From the NCBI GenBank assembly GCA_049671285.1, contig JBATUQ010000052.1:15774-79773 (forward strand): a stretch of DNA of 64,000 bases. Reading direction: 5' to 3'. Of this stretch, positions 1-55,720 are shown piece by piece (the first letter of the stretch is position 1; the number at the start of each line of letters is the position of its first letter). This DNA comes from Leeuwenhoekiella sp. GTDB taxonomy: Bacteria; Bacteroidota; Bacteroidia; Flavobacteriales; Flavobacteriaceae. Position numbers and translations under genes: made by a program. Below the pieces are notes generated by a model, which saw nothing but the letters and a program-made list of their open reading frames with translations, was not told where the DNA came from and ran no database searches.

Positions 1-597
1 TTAAAGGATGATATAAATGAAGCTAATTTTACGGACAATTTATTCGGAGAGAAAACAAAAATCAATGCACAAGAATTGCTTGAAATAAACTTTAAGAAAT
101 ACAATAAGGTAGAGGCATCAGCAAACGAAATTTTAAACCCCTTCAATTATTATGATGCTGCTGCAAATATTGTTGACCCAAATAACGAAATAAGCCCAGG
201 TAGTTCAGGGCAAAATTACGGGATGCTTGCTCTGCTTTGTATCGCCAAGCTTTCTATTGTTGAAAGAAAGACAAGACATACTTTTGATAGGGTTGTAGAG
301 GGAATAAGAATTTTGCCAATTGATGAAGTTGCAGGATTAGGAGAAAACTTTGATATGCTTTACGACATTGCAAAGCGGTTAGACTATCAGATTTTCACTA
401 TGACAATTACTGCTAATGACTTGACTTTTCAAAACGGCAATCAAATTTACTATGAATTTATCAAAAATGCAGATGAAAAACTTTTTGAGCATAATGAGGG
501 AATTCAAGCTTGCTTCTCTAAAGATAAATTGATAGATGATATTCAAACACATTTTTCAGATTCAACTTTCCATTTGGAAGAAATTAATATCAAATGA
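1..597 (+). CDS. 3' part of an SMC/ABC-type ATPase gene, 5'-truncated by the window edge; candidate defence ATPase (Wadjet JetC/MksF-like or PARIS AriA/OLD-like)
   Basis: Frame 1 is open from nt 1 (no stop before the listed ATG at 76), so the gene starts upstream of the window. The translation has an ABC-signature-like SPGSSGQ motif. About 35 aa later comes a Walker-B/D-loop-like RILPIDEVAGLG, then an H-loop-position QIFTMTIT with no His. A 4-bp ATGA stop/start overlap joins it to the next ORF. Confidence 0.4.
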   Translation, partial: LKDDINEANFTDNLFGEKTKINAQELLEINFKKYNKVEASANEILNPFNYYDAAANIVDPNNEISPGSSGQNYGMLALLCIAKLSIVERKTRHTFDRVVEGIRILPIDEVAGLGENFDMLYDIAKRLDYQIFTMTITANDLTFQNGNQIYYEFIKNADEKLFEHNEGIQACFSKDKLIDDIQTHFSDSTFHLEEINIK

Positions 598-1508
598 TTC
601 CAATTAATACGCCATATAAGGTTCTAATGTATTTGGTAAAAATCAATGAAGATAAATCTTCACCAAAAAAGTATGAAAGTGACGCATTGATTTTGCATTT
701 TATTGAAAGGAAGTATCTAACAACACCAAAAGAAAGTCATAGAAAGTTTTATAAATCAAGTTCTTTTGAAGAACCTTTTACCAATGAAATTTTTCCAACA
801 TTTAGAAAATATGATTCATTCATCAAAAAATATCAAATTGAGAACTTAGAGAATCATTATTCAGTTCAGGAATTTGATACCTTAATCCAAATTGAAAATG
901 AAAGAGTAAAAATTCTTAATGCTGAATATTCTTTTCAAACAATACTTACTCAGCATTTTGGAAGTTCAAAGCACAGGAAAGCAGGTGGAATTTTATCTGA
1001 CGCAATAAAGAAAATATTAAAAATTGACAGCTTCCCTGAAGAGATTAAAGATCGACAATTTCTTTCTGTTCTATATCCAAAAAATGAAACTCGCTATATC
1101 ATACTTTGTGAAAATTTGAATAGATTAAAAATGCCAAGACACGACTTCATTGAGTTTTGGTATGCAGGTGGAAAAAACATAAAACAGCTTCAATTCATTC
1201 CAAAACCTAAGGTTCCAATTTTTTATCTATTTGATTGGGATTATGAAGGATTAAATATTTACATAGAAATTGAGCAAAAATACTTACCGACTATTAAAGC
1301 GTTAATCCCTGATAATTACGAATCATTAATGGAAAAACAGGAAGACGTAAAAGAGCACCACAGTAAATGGAAAAATAATAAATGCTTACTTCATTTATGT
1401 GAGAATGAAAGAGAAATAGCAAAGGTTTTATTTGAAACAGACCACATAATAGAAGAGCAGAAAATTAGGTTAAATGATATAAATCTATTAAAAAACGGCA
1501 TCATTTAG
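594..1508 (+). CDS. Toprim-domain protein; nuclease/topoisomerase-like partner of the upstream ATPase (JetD/MksG-like or OLD/AriB-like)
   Basis: The C-terminal half carries Toprim hallmarks in the right order and spacing: a conserved Glu in RYIILCENLNRL, a Gly-Gly in FWYAGGKN, and DxD-G in IFYLFDWDYEGLNIY. The 4-bp overlap with the upstream ATPase gene implies translational coupling. At 304 aa it is nearer AriB/DUF4435 size than a typical ~400-aa JetD. Confidence 0.4.
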   Translation: MIPINTPYKVLMYLVKINEDKSSPKKYESDALILHFIERKYLTTPKESHRKFYKSSSFEEPFTNEIFPTFRKYDSFIKKYQIENLENHYSVQEFDTLIQIENERVKILNAEYSFQTILTQHFGSSKHRKAGGILSDAIKKILKIDSFPEEIKDRQFLSVLYPKNETRYIILCENLNRLKMPRHDFIEFWYAGGKNIKQLQFIPKPKVPIFYLFDWDYEGLNIYIEIEQKYLPTIKALIPDNYESLMEKQEDVKEHHSKWKNNKCLLHLCENEREIAKVLFETDHIIEEQKIRLNDINLLKNGII

Positions 1509-1588
1509 AGAACATTTATATTAACACGTTTGATGATACATTAGCAATTCACACAAGAAAACGTTTAGTCCAAGTATGACAAAATAAC

Positions 1589-1745
1589 CCGGAAAAGTTT
1601 TCGAACAGCGATCCCAACGAGGTTTCTATTGTGCTGACCAATCAGTATAATTTTCGCGTAAGCGTGATTGCCATTGATGAGATCCCGGTACAGTTTCAGT
1701 AGCGGGATTTTGAGATGCAGATTGTCGTAGAAGCTAAAAAGACAT
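1589..1745 (+). pseudogene. Degenerate partial copy of an internal segment (codons ~70-125) of the DUF58 gene
   Basis: About 157 bp, ~90% identical to 3029-3185 inside the intact DUF58 gene. It translates to PEKFSNSDPNEVSIVLTNQYNFRVSVIAIDEIPVQFQ*, with TAG replacing the AAG Lys codon of the intact copy. It is a direct repeat 1440 bp upstream of its parent and brackets the rhuM gene. Confidence 0.6.
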
Positions 1746-1760
1746 GTAAAGCAAGGTGAA

Positions 1761-2738
1761 ATGCATTCAGAAATAATTATATATCAAACCGAAGACGGGC
1801 AGACCAAAATTCGAACTCGATTAGAAAATGAAACTGTTTGGTTGAATCAAGAACAAATGGCAGAGCTTTTTCAGAGAGATCGAAGTGTGATTACAAAACA
1901 TATCGGCAATATTTTCAAAGAAGGAGAATTGGAAAAAAAAAGCAATGTGCAAAATTTGCACATTGGTGGTTCAGACAAGCCTGTAAAGTTTTACAATCTT
2001 GATGTTATCATATCAGTAGGTTACCGGGTAAAATCGCTAAGAGGCACTCAATTTCGTATTTGGGCAACACAGCGGTTGCGAGAATATATCGTCAAGGGTT
2101 TTGCTATGAATGACGACCTGCTCAAGGAAGCAGGTGGTGGCAATTATTTTGATGAACTGCTAGCTCGCATCAGAGATATACGTTCATCCGAAAAAGTGTT
2201 TTGGCGTAAAGTGCTCGATATTTATGCAACCAGTATTGATTATGACGGTAAAGCCGAAGAATCCATCCCTTTTTTTAAGACGGTACAAAATAAAATGCAC
2301 TGGGCTGCACACGGGCAAGCGGCTGCAGAAACCATTTACAAACGTATTGACGCTAGTAAACCCCATTTGGGCCTAACCAATTTTAAAGGCGAAAAGCCAA
2401 CAAAAAAAGAAACTGAGGTTGCCAAAAACTACCTGAATGAAAAAGAACTGGATGTTCTCAACAGAATGGTTACAGCCTATTTGGAATTAGCAGAACTGCA
2501 AGCGCTGAACAGAAAGCCAATGTATATGAAAGATTGGATAAGCCGTTTAGATGACTTTCTTCAGATGACCGGAAACGACATCCTAACCAATGCAGGAAGC
2601 ATCAGTCATCAAAAAGCTTTGGACAAAGCTCATCAAGAATATGAAAAACATAGGGAAGAAACCAAAAATGAGCTTTCTAAAGCAGAAAAGGATTTCATAA
2701 AGCAAATAGAGTCTACTGCCAAAAAATTAAAGAAATAG
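1761..2738 (+). CDS. rhuM: RhuM-family protein (virulence/defence-island associated, DNA-binding)
   Basis: 325 aa. The N-terminus IIIYQTEDGQTKIRTRLENETVWLNQEQMAELFQRDRSVITKHI and the central YRVKSLRGTQFRIWATQRLREYIVKGF are the conserved core of the RhuM family. Confidence 0.85.
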   Translation: MHSEIIIYQTEDGQTKIRTRLENETVWLNQEQMAELFQRDRSVITKHIGNIFKEGELEKKSNVQNLHIGGSDKPVKFYNLDVIISVGYRVKSLRGTQFRIWATQRLREYIVKGFAMNDDLLKEAGGGNYFDELLARIRDIRSSEKVFWRKVLDIYATSIDYDGKAEESIPFFKTVQNKMHWAAHGQAAAETIYKRIDASKPHLGLTNFKGEKPTKKETEVAKNYLNEKELDVLNRMVTAYLELAELQALNRKPMYMKDWISRLDDFLQMTGNDILTNAGSISHQKALDKAHQEYEKHREETKNELSKAEKDFIKQIESTAKKLKK

Positions 2739-2815
2739 CCAATGCAAAATTTAGTACACATAGCATACAGCCAAACGACTAGGAGCAAAAGTTCTGATTT
2801 CTAAAAGAATAAAAA

Positions 2816-4156
2816 TTGAAAATAATAAGCTTCATAAAATCCCTCTACCTCCACAACCGTGTGTTTTACGCATTGGCCGGCATCGGTGTACTTTTCCTGT
2901 TTTCCTATTGGTATCAATGGTTGTATGTGGTAAGTTGGTTGCTGCTTTGGGCGTTGTTTTTGTTTTTTATCATTGATTGCGTTGCCCTATACCGAAGAAA
3001 AGACGGCCTTACCGCAAAACGCGATTTGCCGGAAAAGTTTTCGAACAGCGATCCCAATGAGGTACCGATTCTGCTGACCAATCAGTATAATTTTCGCGTC
3101 AGCGTAATTGCCATTGATGAGATCCCGGTACAGTTTCAGAAGCGGGATTTTGAGATGAAGATTTTGGTGGAGGCCAAAAAGAACAAACGCGTGGAGTACC
3201 ACTTGCGCCCCACCGAGCGTGGTCAGTACACCTTTGGGAACCTCAACCTTTACGTTCGGTCGCCGTTGTTGCTGGCGGTACGTCGGTATAAATTTCAAAA
3301 GGACCAGATGGTAAAGGTGTATCCGTCGTTCATCCAGATGAAGAAGTATGCCTTTCTCGCCATCGACAATAAGTTGACGCAATACGGTCTGAAGAAAATG
3401 CGTCGCATTGGCCACACGATGGAGTTTGAACAGATCAAGGAATACGTTCCCGGTGACGATGTGCGTACCATTAATTGGAAAGCCACGGCCAAACAGGGCA
3501 ACCTGATGGTCAATCAATATCAGGATGAAAAATCTCAGCCCATTTATTCGGTAATCGATGCGAGCCGGGTGATGAAAATGCCTTTTAAAGGCTTGACACT
3601 GTTGGATTATGCCATCAACAGTACGCTGGCCTTTAGTAATGTGGCACTAAAAAAAGGCGATAAAACCGGAATGCTCACCTTTAGTGAAAACATTCTGAAC
3701 CACCTCGCCGCAAGCAAAAAGAAAACCCACCTCAACCTGATTATGGAGGTGCTCTACAGCATCAACACCCGTTTTCTAGATAGTGATTTTGGTCGCTTGT
3801 ATGCCGAAGTGAAACATAAGATTACCCACCGCAGCCTGCTTTTGCTGTACACCAACTTTGAGCACATCACCGCACTCGAGCGGCAACTGCCCTATCTCAA
3901 AGGACTTTCGCAGAAACATGTACTGGTCGTGATCTTTTTCGAAAATTCGGAGCTGGACGATATAATTCAGAAGAAGGCGGAAAACACTCCTGAAATCTAC
4001 CACAAGGCCATTGCCCAAAAAATGGACTATGACAAAAAATTAATGGTCAAGGAACTGGAAAAGCACGGCATTCAGACCGTACTCACCAAGCCGGAAAACC
4101 TTACAGTAAATACCATCAACAAATATTTGGAAATCAAAGCCCGGGGTATTTTGTAA
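2816..4156 (+). CDS. DUF58 domain protein (MoxR-associated, vWA-like fold) with an N-terminal transmembrane extension
   Basis: The DUF58 core motif is present: GHTMEFEQIKEYVPGDDVRTINWKATAKQGNLMVNQYQDEKSQP. The N-terminus has two hydrophobic helices. No MoxR ATPase gene lies next to it in this window. Confidence 0.85.
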   Translation: MKIISFIKSLYLHNRVFYALAGIGVLFLFSYWYQWLYVVSWLLLWALFLFFIIDCVALYRRKDGLTAKRDLPEKFSNSDPNEVPILLTNQYNFRVSVIAIDEIPVQFQKRDFEMKILVEAKKNKRVEYHLRPTERGQYTFGNLNLYVRSPLLLAVRRYKFQKDQMVKVYPSFIQMKKYAFLAIDNKLTQYGLKKMRRIGHTMEFEQIKEYVPGDDVRTINWKATAKQGNLMVNQYQDEKSQPIYSVIDASRVMKMPFKGLTLLDYAINSTLAFSNVALKKGDKTGMLTFSENILNHLAASKKKTHLNLIMEVLYSINTRFLDSDFGRLYAEVKHKITHRSLLLLYTNFEHITALERQLPYLKGLSQKHVLVVIFFENSELDDIIQKKAENTPEIYHKAIAQKMDYDKKLMVKELEKHGIQTVLTKPENLTVNTINKYLEIKARGIL

Positions 4157-4240
4157 TTGCGGTTCTTTCATTTTCGCATCACGCAGAATACACAAGATCA
4201 AACTTGGTTATCTTTACAGCACGCATTATTTAATCTACTT

Positions 4241-4609
4241 ATGAAAAAAGTCCTCATTTATATTTTGGGCGGGATCGTCGCCCTCTTCTTGTTTTTCTTT
4301 GTTTTTGTGTATTCGGTGCCGTATAGCGAGGGCACCCGTGCTGGCGAACTGATCAAATTCAGTCACAAAGGTGTGCTCGTCAAAACCTGGGAAGGCCAGA
4401 TCAGTCAAGGGATCAGCGGTGCACAGATTTTTGATTTCTCGGTGTTGGATAAGGAAGACGATGTCATTCAGAAATTACAGGATTATCAGGGCACCTATGT
4501 CAAACTCACCTACGTGGAGCGGTACACCACCTTTTTCTTCTGGGGCGACACCAAATATTTCATTACCGACGTAGTCAAGGAAAATTCACCACATTTTAAC
4601 CGGCAATAA
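4241..4609 (+). CDS. Hypothetical small membrane protein
   Basis: The listed ORF 4157-4609 most plausibly starts at the internal ATG (MKKVLIYILGGIVALFLFFFVFVY), giving a single N-terminal TM helix. No recognisable family. Confidence 0.45.
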   Translation: MKKVLIYILGGIVALFLFFFVFVYSVPYSEGTRAGELIKFSHKGVLVKTWEGQISQGISGAQIFDFSVLDKEDDVIQKLQDYQGTYVKLTYVERYTTFFFWGDTKYFITDVVKENSPHFNRQ

Positions 4610-5358
4610 TGTTTCAATCGGGCCTTGTACGGCATCCTTGCCAAAAGCCCTCAGGAGTTCCTTATCTTTACGTTCAAATTCAAAGAAATATTATATTGAG
4701 CATTTCCGAAAACCTAAAAAAATATAAGAACGAACTTCCCCAACAGGTCAAACTGGTTGCGGTATCAAAGACCAAACCTTTAGAAGATCTTCGTGAAGCA
4801 TACGATGCCGGTCAGCGCATTTTTGGTGAAAACAAAATCCAGGAAATGACCGATAAATGGGAAGCGCTTCCCAAAGATATCCAATGGCATATGATTGGTC
4901 ACGTGCAGACCAATAAGGTGAAGTATATGGCGCCTTATGTGAGCTTGATACACAGCGGCGACCGGCTCAAACTCTTCAAGGAAATCAACAAACAGGGCAA
5001 AAAAGCAGACCGCATAATCAATGTGCTGCTTCAGGTTAAGATTGCCGAAGAGGATAGTAAATTTGGAATGGATCCCAAAGAAGCCGAAGATTTTCTAAAC
5101 GGTGAACCACTGGCTGATTTTCCCTATGTAAACATTAAAGGTTTGATGGGAATGGCGTCTTTTGTTGAGGATGAGAAGCAATTGCATCGGGAGTTTGCGG
5201 TAGTTGAAAAGTTGTATGACCGCTTCCGCGAAAAACACGGTTTTACGATACTAAGTGCAGGAATGAGCGGAGATTATAAGATCGCCCTCGAGCACAAAAG
5301 CAATATGGTACGCATAGGCAGTGCTATTTTTGGCGCCCGTGAAGGAGGTGGATGGTAG
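4609..5358 (+). CDS. yggS: YggS-family pyridoxal-phosphate homeostasis protein (PLPHP)
   Basis: KLVAVSKTKPLEDLREAYDAGQRIFGENKIQEM...WHMIGHVQTNKVKYM is the YggS/alanine-racemase-N fold signature. The true start may be the in-frame TTG at about 4696 (MSISENLKKYK...), giving the usual ~220 aa. The listed ATG at 4609 abuts the previous stop. Confidence 0.85.
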   Translation: MFQSGLVRHPCQKPSGVPYLYVQIQRNIILSISENLKKYKNELPQQVKLVAVSKTKPLEDLREAYDAGQRIFGENKIQEMTDKWEALPKDIQWHMIGHVQTNKVKYMAPYVSLIHSGDRLKLFKEINKQGKKADRIINVLLQVKIAEEDSKFGMDPKEAEDFLNGEPLADFPYVNIKGLMGMASFVEDEKQLHREFAVVEKLYDRFREKHGFTILSAGMSGDYKIALEHKSNMVRIGSAIFGAREGGGW

Positions 5359-5380
5359 CGGATCAGTTGGCAGTCTTCGG

Positions 5381-5540
5381 TGGGCAGTGGCAGTCTTCAG
5401 TAGGCAGTGGCAGTCTTCGGTGGGCAGTGGCAGTCTTCGGTGGGCAGTGGCAGTCTTCGGTGGGCAGTGGCAGTCTCCAGTGGGCAGTGGCAGTCTTCAG
5501 TGGGCAGTGGCAGTCTTCAGTGGCAGTTTGCAGTTTTTTG
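5381..5540. repeat. 20-bp tandem minisatellite, ~8 copies (TGGGCAGTGGCAGTCTTCGG)n, intergenic
   Basis: Head-to-tail copies with only 1-2 nt variants (TCAG/TCGG/CCAG at the unit end). The unit length is not a multiple of 3. It lies between the yggS stop at 5358 and the exonuclease start at 5654. The listed ORFs 5321-5602, 5352-5582 and 5363-5641(-) are just translations of the repeat. Confidence 0.9.
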
Positions 5541-5653: not shown

Positions 5654-7042
5654 GTGTACGCAGTTTTAGACATAGAGACCACAGGAGGAAAATTTAATGA
5701 AGAAGGCATCACGGAAATTGCTATTTACCGTTTTGATGGCCGTGAGGTGGTCGATCAGTTTATCAGCCTTGTGAATCCCGAGCAGCCCATTCAACCTTTT
5801 GTGGTTCAACTCACTGGGATCAACAATAAAATGCTGCGCAATGCCCCCAAATTTTATGAGGTGGCCAAACGTATCATCGAAATCACAAACGAATGCACTA
5901 TCGTTGCCCATAATGCACCCTTTGACTACCGCATCCTCCGGTTGGAATTTGACCGTCTTGGATATGATTACCAACGTAAAAGCCTGTGTACCGTTGACCT
6001 TTCCAAAGAGCTGCTGCCCGAAGAAGAAAGCCACAGTCTGGGCAAACTTGCCCGTAGTTTGGGAATACCAATGACAGACCGCCACCGGGCAAGCGGTGAT
6101 GCGCTGGCCACTGTAAAACTTTTTAAGCTCTTGCTCAACCGCGACACCAAAAAGAAAATCATACAACAGAGCGTCAACCTCAACGTACCAAAAAAAATGG
6201 AGACCAAACTCCGTGATTTGCTGGAAACCGTACCAAGCACCACCGGAGTTTTCTACCTGCATAATGCCAAGGGGAAGATAATATTTATCGGCAGAAGCCG
6301 AAATATGAAAAAAAGGCTCAATCAATATTTTACCAATGAAAACAAAAAATCCCGACAAATACAAGAGCGTACCGCTGCCGTAAGCGTAGAGGAAACCGGA
6401 AGTGAACTCATTGCAACCCTGAAGGAATATGAAGAGCTGAAGCAGAACAGGCCATATTACAACACCTTAAAAAGGGAGCAGTTTACTAGCCAGTTGGTCA
6501 TAAAAATCGATCCAGACGGATTTGCATCGCTGGTCGTAGAGCGTCCCGATGACCGCCCCGACCCTATCGCCTATTTTGCAAACAGCAGCAGTGCCAAAAA
6601 GCACCTTCTCGACTATGTTGACAAGTATGACCTCTGCCTGAACAGAACAAGCATGAAGAAAGACAAAGGGGCTTGCGAGAATTACAAGTTGGGAACGTGC
6701 AAGGGAGCCTGTGTTGGCAATGAGGAGCCGTCAAGTTACAATGCAAGGGTAGAAGATTTGATACGGGAACATTCCTTTTTCGGGCGGGATTTGGCTATTA
6801 TTGACCGGGGTCGCAACGCGAAAGAGCGTGCAGTAATTTTGATTGAAAATGGTAAACTGAGAGGTATGGGTTACTTTAACCTTAATTTTCAGATCAACGA
6901 TCCACAAATACTGCATAAGATCATTACCCCAATGAAGGATAATGCGGTTTTTCGGTTTATCATCCAACGACACTTACGTTCCAAGAAAGTCCTGAAAATT
7001 ATCGATCTTAAGGCCATCAATCAATCTGAAACCAAAAACTAG
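5654..7042 (+). CDS. DnaQ-like (DEDDh) 3'-5' exonuclease fused to a GIY-YIG nuclease domain (Cho/UvrC-N-like)
   Basis: The N-terminus MYAVLDIETTGG...IVAHNAPFDYRIL...HRASGDALAT gives the Exo I, II and III motifs. The central GVFYLHNAKGKIIFIGRSRNMKKRLNQYF is the GIY-YIG core. This fusion is common in Bacteroidota. Confidence 0.8.
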   Translation: MYAVLDIETTGGKFNEEGITEIAIYRFDGREVVDQFISLVNPEQPIQPFVVQLTGINNKMLRNAPKFYEVAKRIIEITNECTIVAHNAPFDYRILRLEFDRLGYDYQRKSLCTVDLSKELLPEEESHSLGKLARSLGIPMTDRHRASGDALATVKLFKLLLNRDTKKKIIQQSVNLNVPKKMETKLRDLLETVPSTTGVFYLHNAKGKIIFIGRSRNMKKRLNQYFTNENKKSRQIQERTAAVSVEETGSELIATLKEYEELKQNRPYYNTLKREQFTSQLVIKIDPDGFASLVVERPDDRPDPIAYFANSSSAKKHLLDYVDKYDLCLNRTSMKKDKGACENYKLGTCKGACVGNEEPSSYNARVEDLIREHSFFGRDLAIIDRGRNAKERAVILIENGKLRGMGYFNLNFQINDPQILHKIITPMKDNAVFRFIIQRHLRSKKVLKIIDLKAINQSETKN

Positions 7043-22018: not shown

Positions 22019-22083
22019 GGCGGTTCTCTTGGTACGCTTCCTCACCTTGTTCGGACGCTACTCGAGAACCTTATCAAAAGGAA

Positions 22084-22203
22084 AACAAAAGGTGTCCGAG
22101 TAGGGTTATTAAAGCAGAGCGAGACCACCCGTACCGAGGAAACCGGAACAAAAAAAGGTGTCCGAGTAGGGTGGTCAAAGCGGAGCGAGACTACCCGTAC
22201 CGA
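22084..22203. repeat. Two tandem ~62-bp direct repeats (~85% identical), intergenic
   Basis: AAAAGGTGTCCGAGTAGGGT(T/G)(A/G)T(T/C)AAAGC(A/G)GAGCGAGAC(C/T)ACCCGTACCGAGGA occurs twice in tandem. A GGTTCTC...GAGAACC inverted repeat (22023-22071) lies just upstream. They sit between the two 5'-nucleotidase-domain genes. Confidence 0.6.
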
Positions 22204-22228
22204 GGACCCGGGAACTAAAACTTACATT

Positions 22229-55646: not shown

Positions 55647-55720
55647 GGCGAGGTAGCTCAGCTGGTTAGAGCGTCGGATTCATAACCCGGAGGTCGGGGG
55701 ATCGTGCCCCCCTCTCGCTA
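55647..55720 (+). tRNA. tRNA with CAT anticodon (Met / fMet / Ile2-lysidine class)
   Basis: GGCGAGG-TA-GCTC-AGCTGGTTA-GAGC-G-TCGGA-TTCATAA-CCCGG-AGGTC-GGGGG-ATCGTGC-CCCCC-TCTCGCT-A. Canonical D-arm. The 7-nt anticodon loop has T33 and CAT at 34-36. The T-loop has swapped A54/T58. The acceptor has two G-U pairs. CCA is not encoded. Confidence 0.75.

What the first reader, a model, noticed from the sequence alone, without database searches (positions are those of the whole stretch)
1..2738. Window-edge defence-like module: SMC/ABC ATPase (truncated by window) + Toprim protein, translationally coupled, followed by RhuM
Seen in sequence: the ATPase head fragment has signature-like, Walker B, D-loop and H-loop-position motifs. 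The next protein has Toprim E / GG / DxD-G motifs. The two genes overlap by ATGA.

Established: an ABC/SMC ATPase plus a Toprim nuclease/topoisomerase-like partner is the core of Wadjet (JetC-JetD), MksFG, PARIS (AriA-AriB), Gabija and OLD-family defence systems. RhuM genes are frequent passengers of defence islands.

Inference: this is the 3' end of an anti-plasmid or anti-phage system whose remaining genes lie upstream of the window. The 304-aa size favours an AriB/DUF4435-like or short JetD-like protein. The H-loop lacks the usual His.
Basis: partly seen in the sequence, partly recalled or inferred. Interest (0 to 1): 0.65.

Follow-up and report, generated by a model that had tools for sequence, protein, structure and literature searches.

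The report
Divergent Wadjet-like anti-plasmid operon, Bacteroidota
The window edge holds the last two genes of a four-gene SMC motor plus DNA-cutting system of the Wadjet type, from a Bacteroidota lineage so divergent that the standard defence-gene profiles tried here miss it; the RhuM gene next to it is only a neighbour.

Summary
Window 1-597 encodes the C-terminal ATPase head of a 1165-aa protein. Window 594-1508 encodes a 304-aa Toprim protein, and the two genes overlap by ATGA. RhuM follows at 1761-2738.

A 100%-identical contig (L001/L003) supplies the missing upstream DNA. It shows a four-gene operon: A (451 aa), B (211 aa, Pfam MksE), C (1165 aa) and D (304 aa).
- C folds as head, coiled coil, hinge, coiled coil, head. 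Its nearest structures are MukB and then Wadjet JetC.
- D folds as winged helix plus Toprim. Its nearest structures are MksG/JetD and then Topo VI-A.
- A has only suggestive MukF-like signals.

This is a Wadjet/MksBEFG-type SMC-nuclease system, not PARIS, Gabija or OLD.

It is unusually divergent. PADLOC finds no JetA, JetB or JetC, and Pfam recognises only MksE. The D profile recovers just 134 clusters among 1.84 billion representatives and no protein longer than 349 aa.

The operon architecture is conserved in Bacteroidota. Relatives of D occur in 159 species genomes. Here the operon is a roughly 30% GC island in a roughly 45% GC genome, inserted between the MoxR and DUF58 genes.

RhuM is not found near the operon in any of the other 82 loci fetched.

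Verdict: a new variant of a known kind, of moderate interest.

The parts
1..597 (+). 3' end of gene C: the last 198 aa (residues 968-1165) of a 1165-aa MukB/JetC-class SMC ATPase. This is the C-terminal half of the ATPase head.
   Evidence: Window 1-1696 is 100% identical to L001 9375-11070. The full-length protein is P0123, at 100% identity. The AF2 model shows head, coiled coil, hinge, coiled coil, head. Foldseek gives MukB 5e-26 and Wadjet-II JetC 8e-22. hhalign against E. coli MukB gives 1.2e-9 for the N-terminal head and 1.8e-4 for the C-terminal head.
196..213 (+). Signature-like motif PGSSGQ of the SMC head (C residues 1033-1038).
   Evidence: G1037 is invariant in 35 homologues. The motif aligns to the MukB signature LSTGE.
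310..342 (+). Walker B ILPIDE (D1075, E1076) followed by the D-loop-like VAGLG.
   Evidence: E1076 is invariant. D1075, G1079, L1080 and G1081 are conserved in at least 90% of sequences. The motif aligns to MukB LFLDEAARLD.
388..411 (+). H-loop position QIFTMTIT, with no histidine.
   Evidence: Q1097 and M1101 are invariant. E. coli MukB aligns QLIIAAPE here and also lacks His.
594..1508 (+). [quoted passage not shown] It is translationally coupled to C through the ATGA overlap.
1110..1241 (+). Toprim catalytic core of D: E173 (1110-1112), G192-G193 (1167-1172), D214-W215-D216 (1233-1241).
   Evidence: These residues are invariant in the 48-sequence alignment A2.
1509..1588 (.). Right-hand end of the low-GC island, between the stop codon of gene D and the DUF58 remnant.
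   Evidence: GC is 28-33% across the operon and 42-49% in the flanks. No flanking direct or inverted repeats were found.
1535..1741 (+). Pseudogene remnant of the DUF58 gene (aa 54-122, with an in-frame stop). It marks the boundary and is not part of the system.
   Evidence: tblastn gives 72% identity over 69 aa. A 154-nt direct repeat, 1589-1742 versus 3029-3182, is 91% identical.
1761..2738 (+). RhuM-family gene. It is a neighbour and not a component of the operon.
   Evidence: Pfam Virulence_RhuM matches at 1e-106. PADLOC candidate PDC-S05 matches at 1.7e-155. No RhuM homologue was found in any of the other 82 loci fetched.

Best explanation
Window 1-1508 is the 3' end of a four-gene operon, A-B-C-D, encoding a Wadjet/MksBEFG-type SMC-nuclease system from a divergent lineage found almost only in Bacteroidota.

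The four proteins:
- C is a MukB/JetC-class SMC ATPase.
- B is an MksE-type KITE subunit.
- A sits in the kleisin position (inferred).
- D is a short JetD/MksG-like winged-helix plus Toprim nuclease.

The mechanism is inferred from the characterised type I and type II Wadjet systems. The A-B-C motor loads on DNA and extrudes loops using ATP. When extrusion runs to completion on a small circular DNA, the D dimer is activated. D then cuts the DNA through its Toprim acidic residues (E173, D214, D216). The result is restriction of plasmids or other small circular invaders.

In this genome the operon is a horizontally acquired low-GC island between the MoxR and DUF58 genes. RhuM is a separate neighbouring gene.
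For: Operon extension:
- Contig L001/L003 is 100% identical to window 1-1696. It carries genes of 451, 211, 1165 and 304 aa that abut or overlap.

Gene B:
- Pfam MksE matches at 2.4e-15 and 57.7 bits, against a cut-off of 27.

Gene C:
- Walker A GQSGTGKS is present and the ATPase motifs are invariant.
- The family profile hits the MukB head 3euj at 1.8e-7.
- Distant homologues carry Pfam MukB_N.
- The AF2 model shows SMC architecture.
- Foldseek gives MukB 5e-26, Wadjet-II JetC 8e-22 and type I JetC 1e-10.

Gene D:
- PADLOC gives weak JetD3 and JetD1 hits.
- E, GG and DxD are invariant.

Gene A:
- The top three PDB hits of its N-terminal profile are all the MukF winged-helix domain, in register.
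- hhalign against E. coli MukF gives E = 0.0033.

Conservation and context:
- C lies directly upstream of D in 77 of 80 genome loci.
- A- and B-sized genes lie upstream in 68 loci.
- The operon sits in different neighbourhoods in L001 and L002.
- GC is about 30% in the operon and about 45% in the flanks.
- Neighbours in other loci include integrases, Gabija-like AAA_15/OLD-Toprim/UvrD genes, reverse transcriptases and Schlafen-like genes.
Against: - No function has been tested. The loop-extrusion and cleavage mechanism is carried over from type I and type II Wadjet (papers read).
- The kleisin identity of A is not established. It has no Pfam, PADLOC or significant PDB relation. The MukF signals are below significance.
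- PADLOC's JetA, JetB and JetC models of types I-III do not hit A, B or C, even at E = 1.
- D is 60-100 aa shorter than the solved JetD and MksG chains. The whole-chain TM-scores are low (0.34-0.47).
- In sequence, C is nearer to MukB than to JetC. A chromosome-organising role therefore cannot be excluded by sequence alone.
Confidence: 0.8

Rival explanations
1. It is a housekeeping MukBEF/MksBEF-type condensin that organises or segregates the Bacteroidota chromosome. The Toprim protein would be an accessory rather than a defence effector.
For: In sequence and fold, C is closest to MukB. B matches the Pfam family named for condensin MksE rather than the JetB family DUF4194.
Against: - The operon always carries a Toprim protein with an intact catalytic E and DxD.
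- It is rare and patchy. Relatives were found in 159 of 185,579 species genomes, and D has only 134 clusters among 1.84 billion representatives.
- It is a low-GC island here.
- It sits in unrelated neighbourhoods in different genomes.
- Those neighbourhoods often include defence or mobile-element genes.
Confidence: 0.08
2. It is a two-gene ABC-ATPase plus Toprim system of the PARIS (AriA/AriB), Gabija (GajA) or OLD class.
For: Seen alone, the window fragment shows only an ABC-type head with signature and Walker B motifs, followed by a small Toprim protein.
Against: - There are no hits to DUF4435, AAA_15, AAA_21, OLD-Toprim, AriA/AriB or GajA models for these proteins.
- The ATPase is 1165 aa long, with about 700 aa of coiled coil and a hinge.
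- A KITE gene and a fourth gene precede it.
- D's best structural matches are MksG and JetD, not OLD nucleases.
Confidence: 0.02
3. It is a Wadjet-like machine with a different target. It would act against phage DNA, or against the circular intermediates of the integrative and conjugative elements common in Bacteroidota, rather than against classical plasmids. RhuM might be a functional partner in this genome.
For: - The family is restricted to a phylum where conjugative transposons are common mobile elements. This point rests on general knowledge and was not tested here.
- RhuM matches a PADLOC defence-candidate family.
- Other defence genes are frequent neighbours.
Against: - The characterised Wadjet systems sense DNA shape and size, not sequence or element type, so circular intermediates would already fall within the same mechanism.
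- RhuM is not found in any of the other 82 loci fetched.
- RhuM is separated from D by a pseudogene remnant.
Confidence: 0.1

Closest known systems
Wadjet (JetABCD) types I-III, also called MksBEFG or EptABCD
   Same: - The four genes are in the same order: kleisin position, KITE, SMC, Toprim nuclease.
- The SMC has head, coiled coil and hinge.
- The nuclease has a winged-helix/CAP plus Toprim fold. MksG and JetD are its best structural matches.
- It occurs sporadically, in island-like settings.
   Different: - PADLOC's JetA, JetB and JetC models for types I-III do not detect A, B or C.
- D gets only sub-threshold JetD hits.
- D is about 300 aa long, against 365-374 aa for the solved JetD/MksG chains.
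- The D-family profile reaches no protein longer than 349 aa among 1.84 billion representatives.
- B falls in Pfam MksE rather than the JetB family DUF4194.
- The JetB IFDR motif mentioned in the review read is not visible in the N-terminus of B.
MukBEF / MksBEF condensins
   Same: - The N-terminal head of C is homologous to MukB. hhalign gives 96% probability at 1.2e-9, and the profile hits PDB 3euj at 1.8e-7.
- The best whole-chain fold match is MukB.
- B matches MksE and weakly matches MukE.
- The N-terminus of A weakly resembles the MukF winged helix.
- There is no His at the H-loop position in either protein.
   Different: - This operon has a fourth gene, the Toprim nuclease.
- C is 1165 aa long, against 1486 aa for E. 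coli MukB.
- The operon is horizontally acquired and rare rather than a core gene set.
Topoisomerase VI subunit A / Spo11
   Different: There is no Top6B-like partner. D is encoded in an SMC operon. By analogy with JetD it would act as a nuclease rather than a religating topoisomerase. This is inferred from the review read and was not tested.

Membership tests
Wadjet (JetABCD/MksBEFG) | An SMC-family ATPase subunit (JetC) with Walker A, signature and Walker B motifs, long antiparallel coiled coils and a hinge. | tested here: met
   The motifs are present and conserved. The AF2 model shows SMC architecture. Foldseek hits MukB, Wadjet-II JetC and type I JetC at 5e-26 to 1e-10.
Wadjet (JetABCD/MksBEFG) | A KITE subunit (JetB/MksE/MukE-like). 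| tested here: met
   Pfam MksE matches at 2.4e-15, above the gathering score. MukE matches at 4e-4. Distant operons give the same result.
Wadjet (JetABCD/MksBEFG) | A kleisin subunit (JetA/MukF-like) with N- and C-terminal winged-helix domains. | tested here: inconclusive
   - A gene of about 450 aa is conserved in the kleisin position in 68 loci.
- It has no Pfam, PADLOC or significant PDB hit.
- Its N-terminal sub-profile ranks the MukF winged-helix domain first, second and third, but only at E 0.07-0.16.
- hhalign gives E 0.0033 at 9.6% probability.
Wadjet (JetABCD/MksBEFG) | A JetD/MksG nuclease with a CAP-like domain, a Toprim domain and conserved acidic residues. | tested here: met
Wadjet (JetABCD/MksBEFG) | Detection by the existing type I-III subunit profiles (PADLOC JetA/B/C/D). 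| tested here: not met
   A, B and C give no hit at E up to 1. Two distant operons give no Jet hit at E up to 0.1. Only D gives weak hits. DefenseFinder could not be run.
Wadjet (JetABCD/MksBEFG) | ATP-dependent restriction of small circular DNA. | not testable with these tools
   This needs transformation or conjugation assays, or in vitro cleavage assays.
PARIS (AriA/AriB) | An AriA ABC ATPase paired with an AriB DUF4435 Toprim protein, as a two-gene system. | tested here: not met
   There are no DUF4435 or Ari hits in Pfam or PADLOC. The operon has four genes, including an SMC with a hinge.
Gabija / OLD-family nucleases | An AAA_15/AAA_21 ATPase fused or paired with an OLD-type Toprim domain. 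| tested here: not met
   These proteins give no such hits. D's structural neighbours are MksG, JetD and Topo VI-A.
RhuM family (Pfam PF13310), window 1761-2738 | A match to the Virulence_RhuM profile above the gathering score. | tested here: met
   The match scores 356 bits against a cut-off of 33.7. PADLOC PDC-S05 matches at 1.7e-155. RhuM is not linked to the operon elsewhere.

The most novel reading that the evidence does not exclude
This operon represents a fourth Wadjet type, found almost only in Bacteroidota and not yet described. Its distinguishing features would be:
- an SMC that is closer to MukB than to any JetC;
- an MksE-type KITE subunit;
- a kleisin that current profiles cannot recognise;
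- a minimal JetD of about 300 aa.

If so, three things follow. PADLOC at least fails to detect it in Bacteroidota (other annotation tools were not run). It could be one barrier to plasmid uptake in this phylum, which is untested. It could also be an informative intermediate for the proposed link between Wadjet and the MukBEF/MksBEF condensins.
Probability: 0.5. Interest if true: 0.6.

Novelty: new variant of a known kind. Interest (0 to 1): 0.45.

Why it matters
Wadjet is the model for how an SMC loop-extruding motor can sense DNA shape and trigger cleavage. The 2023 review and 2025 preprint I read describe only three types.

The PADLOC and Pfam profiles tried here largely miss this lineage. 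Defence-system surveys built on such profiles may therefore undercount SMC-based immunity in Bacteroidota. This is an inference, since only PADLOC and Pfam were run here.

The MukB-like SMC paired with a minimal JetD offers a natural comparison. It could show which parts of JetD and the kleisin are needed for nuclease activation. It also bears on the idea that MukBEF and MksBEF arose from Wadjet by loss of the nuclease.

There is a practical side. If the system restricts plasmids, it could affect how easily strains that carry it can be transformed.

Tried and rejected
- **Exact look-up of the 304-aa protein.** It found nothing, because the public gene call starts 11 codons later. The 293-aa form, P0001, then gave the upstream contig.
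- **Homology search with the 198-aa ATPase fragment.** It returned only short fragments. The full-length query was needed.
- **Sequence searches against the PDB.** Single-sequence searches with C and D found nothing. The D-family profile found nothing either. Only fold comparison linked D to MksG and JetD.
- **NCBIfam.** It gave no meaningful hit for any protein.
- **Profile of protein A.** The full-length profile hit only helical and coiled-coil noise, such as apolipoprotein and flagellin. Pfam gave nothing. The C-terminal sub-profile gave nothing.
- **tblastn of D against 72,556 plasmids.** No match.
- **Search for target-site duplications or inverted repeats at the island ends.** Nothing of 10 nt or more was found.
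- **Sigma-70 promoter and terminator scan.** Counts were no higher than in shuffled sequence.
- **RhuM as a system component.** Rejected, because no RhuM or DUF58 homologue lies within 10 kb of the operon in any other locus fetched.
- **PARIS, Gabija, OLD and Lamassu readings.** Rejected on domain content and operon architecture.
Full report
**1. What is in the window**

The + strand is open from base 1 to a TGA at 595-597 and encodes 198 aa. A 304-aa ORF starts at ATG 594 and ends at 1508, so the two genes share ATGA. A 325-aa ORF at 1761-2738 is a clear RhuM-family protein. It matches Pfam at 1e-106 and PADLOC candidate PDC-S05 at 1.7e-155. A DUF58 gene follows at 2816-4156.

On its own the 198-aa fragment matches no Pfam, PADLOC or NCBIfam model. 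The 304-aa protein gets only weak PADLOC hits to the C-terminal Toprim part of JetD3 (1.4e-5) and JetD1 (1.4e-4).

**2. Extending upstream**

The homology search returned a 100%-identical 293-aa gene call on a 17.5-kb public contig. That contig (L001/L003) is identical to window 1-1696 at every base. I treat it as the upstream continuation of the window.

It carries, on one strand and abutting or overlapping:
- A, 451 aa
- B, 211 aa
- C, 1165 aa
- D, 304 aa

The full-length C is identical to a protein annotated only as hypothetical in a Leeuwenhoekiella sp. MAG. To the left lies a RDD / SpoIIM-like / DUF4129 / DUF4350 / MoxR cluster. In the window, DUF58 follows to the right.

**3. Identity of the four proteins**

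*B.* It matches Pfam MksE above the gathering score (2.4e-15) and matches MukE weakly.

*C.*
- It has Walker A GQSGTGKS near the N-terminus.
- The window-encoded head carries the signature-like PGSSGQ and the Walker B ILPIDE. These key residues are invariant or nearly so in 35 homologues.
- The family profile hits MukB head structures (3euj at 1.8e-7, 1qhl at 3e-4) and no JetC chain.
- hhalign against E. coli MukB gives 96% probability for the N-terminal head.
- hhalign also aligns the C-terminal head motif by motif (E = 1.8e-4).
- More distant homologues carry Pfam MukB_N.
- The AlphaFold model (pLDDT 81) shows head, coiled coil, hinge (about residues 480-560), coiled coil, head.
- Foldseek ranks MukB first (5e-26), then the type II Wadjet JetC (8e-22), then type I JetC from E. 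coli and P. aeruginosa (about 1e-10), then Smc5/6 and Rad50.

*D.*
- Foldseek's only hits at or below 1e-3 are C. glutamicum MksG (1.3e-7) and P. aeruginosa JetD (1.6e-5). Topo VI-A follows.
- E173, G192-G193, D214-W-D216 and G219 are invariant in 48 homologues.

*A.*
- It has no significant relation to anything.
- Its N-terminal sub-profile ranks three MukF entries first among 177,635 PDB sequences. They align in register on the MukF N-terminal winged helix, but only at E 0.07-0.16.
- hhalign against E. coli MukF gives E 0.0033.
- I treat A as a probable kleisin. This rests on gene position plus these weak signals and is not shown.

**4. Is the architecture conserved?**

- A scan of one genome per species found relatives of D in 159 genomes. 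Of the 80 listed, nearly all are Bacteroidota, spanning Flavobacteriia, Sphingobacteriia, Chitinophagia, Cytophagia and Bacteroidia. A few are MAGs assigned elsewhere.
- A homologue of C lies directly upstream of D in 77 of those 80 loci.
- B-sized and A-sized genes precede C in 68 loci.
- A near relative (84% identity in D) has the same 451/211/1165/304 operon in a different neighbourhood, between a TrkA-type channel gene and clpB.
- Immediate neighbours across loci include phage-type integrases, resolvases, AAA_15/AAA_21 plus OLD-Toprim plus UvrD (Gabija-like), reverse transcriptases, Schlafen/AlbA_2 and caspase-like genes.
- In this genome the operon is 28-33% GC, against 42-49% on both sides.

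Together these features point to a mobile defence-type module rather than a core condensin.

**5. How it most likely works**

This section is inference. Type I and type II Wadjet are shown in the literature to cleave circular DNA. They do so through ATP-dependent loop extrusion by JetABC and activation of a JetD Toprim dimer (papers read).

The system here has all the structural parts, except that the kleisin is unproven. It also keeps the catalytic residues of both the ATPase and the nuclease. I therefore expect the same extrusion-cleavage mechanism.

**6. How it differs from known Wadjet**

- PADLOC v2 models for JetA, JetB and JetC of types I-III give no hit for A, B or C. This holds here and in two distant family members.
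- Pfam JetD_C is reached, below threshold, by only 4 of 48 D homologues.
- The D-family profile recovers only 134 clusters at E up to 1e-3 among 1.84 billion representatives. None is longer than 349 aa, so chains the length of the solved JetD/MksG (365-374 aa) are not reached.
- D is about 300 aa, against 365-374 aa for the solved JetD and MksG chains.
- C and B are nearer to MukB and MksE than to the JetC and JetB models.
- The literature I could search describes three Wadjet types. It returned no use of the phrase 'type IV Wadjet' and no paper describing a Bacteroidota Wadjet lineage.

I therefore rate this as a new variant of a known kind. The caveat is that DefenseFinder and newer PADLOC releases could not be run.

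**7.

- The ATGA coupling and all the motifs are confirmed.
- The missing H-loop His is shared with E. coli MukB at the aligned position.
- RhuM is not part of the system. No RhuM or DUF58 homologue occurs within 10 kb of the operon in any other locus fetched.
- RhuM is also separated from D by a DUF58 pseudogene remnant.

**8. Local history (partly followed)**

Window 1535-1741 is a decayed copy of DUF58 codons 54-122. A 154-nt core within it is 91% identical to 3029-3182 in the intact gene.

The region therefore reads: MoxR, low-GC operon, DUF58 remnant, rhuM, intact DUF58. This implies at least two insertion or recombination events at this spot. No flanking repeats mark the operon ends.

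In the short-read public assembly, the rhuM segment is a separate 1467-bp contig, and L001 ends inside the repeat. The exact arrangement therefore depends on how the MAG assembler resolved the repeat.

Noticed in passing
window 1535-1741 and 3029-3182: A decayed fragment of the DUF58 gene (codons 54-122, with an in-frame stop) lies upstream of rhuM. Its 154-nt core is 91% identical to the matching part of the intact DUF58 gene. As a result, rhuM plus the 5' end of DUF58 is bracketed by a direct repeat. This suggests repeated insertion or recombination between MoxR and DUF58.
   Followed up: partly
L086 (1467-bp contig) and L001 end = window 1696: In the public short-read assembly of the same sample, the rhuM segment is its own small contig, and the operon contig stops inside the DUF58 repeat. 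The order around window 1500-3200 therefore rests on how the repeat was resolved in the MAG.
   Followed up: partly
window 5368-5527: A tandem array of about 8 copies of a 20-nt unit (TGGCAGTCTTCAGTGGGCAG, 94% matches) lies in the gap between the 249-aa ORF at 4609-5358 and the 462-aa ORF at 5654-7042. Its function is unknown.
   Followed up: no
window 22080-22220: A 66-nt unit is repeated 2.2 times at 85% matches. It was not examined.
   Followed up: no
L006, L027, L032, L063: The Bacteroidota-type operon, or parts of it, appears in MAGs labelled Methanolobus, Nautiliaceae, Ignavibacteriaceae and Akkermansia. This could be horizontal transfer or binning contamination.
   Followed up: no
L046, L060, L062, L064 (about 660-4715); L045, L054, L067 (about 1-4740); L028, L036, L058: In many distant family members, large co-oriented genes end right at the start of gene A. 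Examples are pairs of about 717 and 627 aa, single genes of about 1570 aa, and pairs of about 702 and 407 aa. They may be linked defence systems or an extended operon. They were only scanned in bulk against Pfam.
   Followed up: partly
window 55647-55720: This is the only Rfam match in the window at gathering threshold. It is a tRNA gene on the + strand.
   Followed up: no
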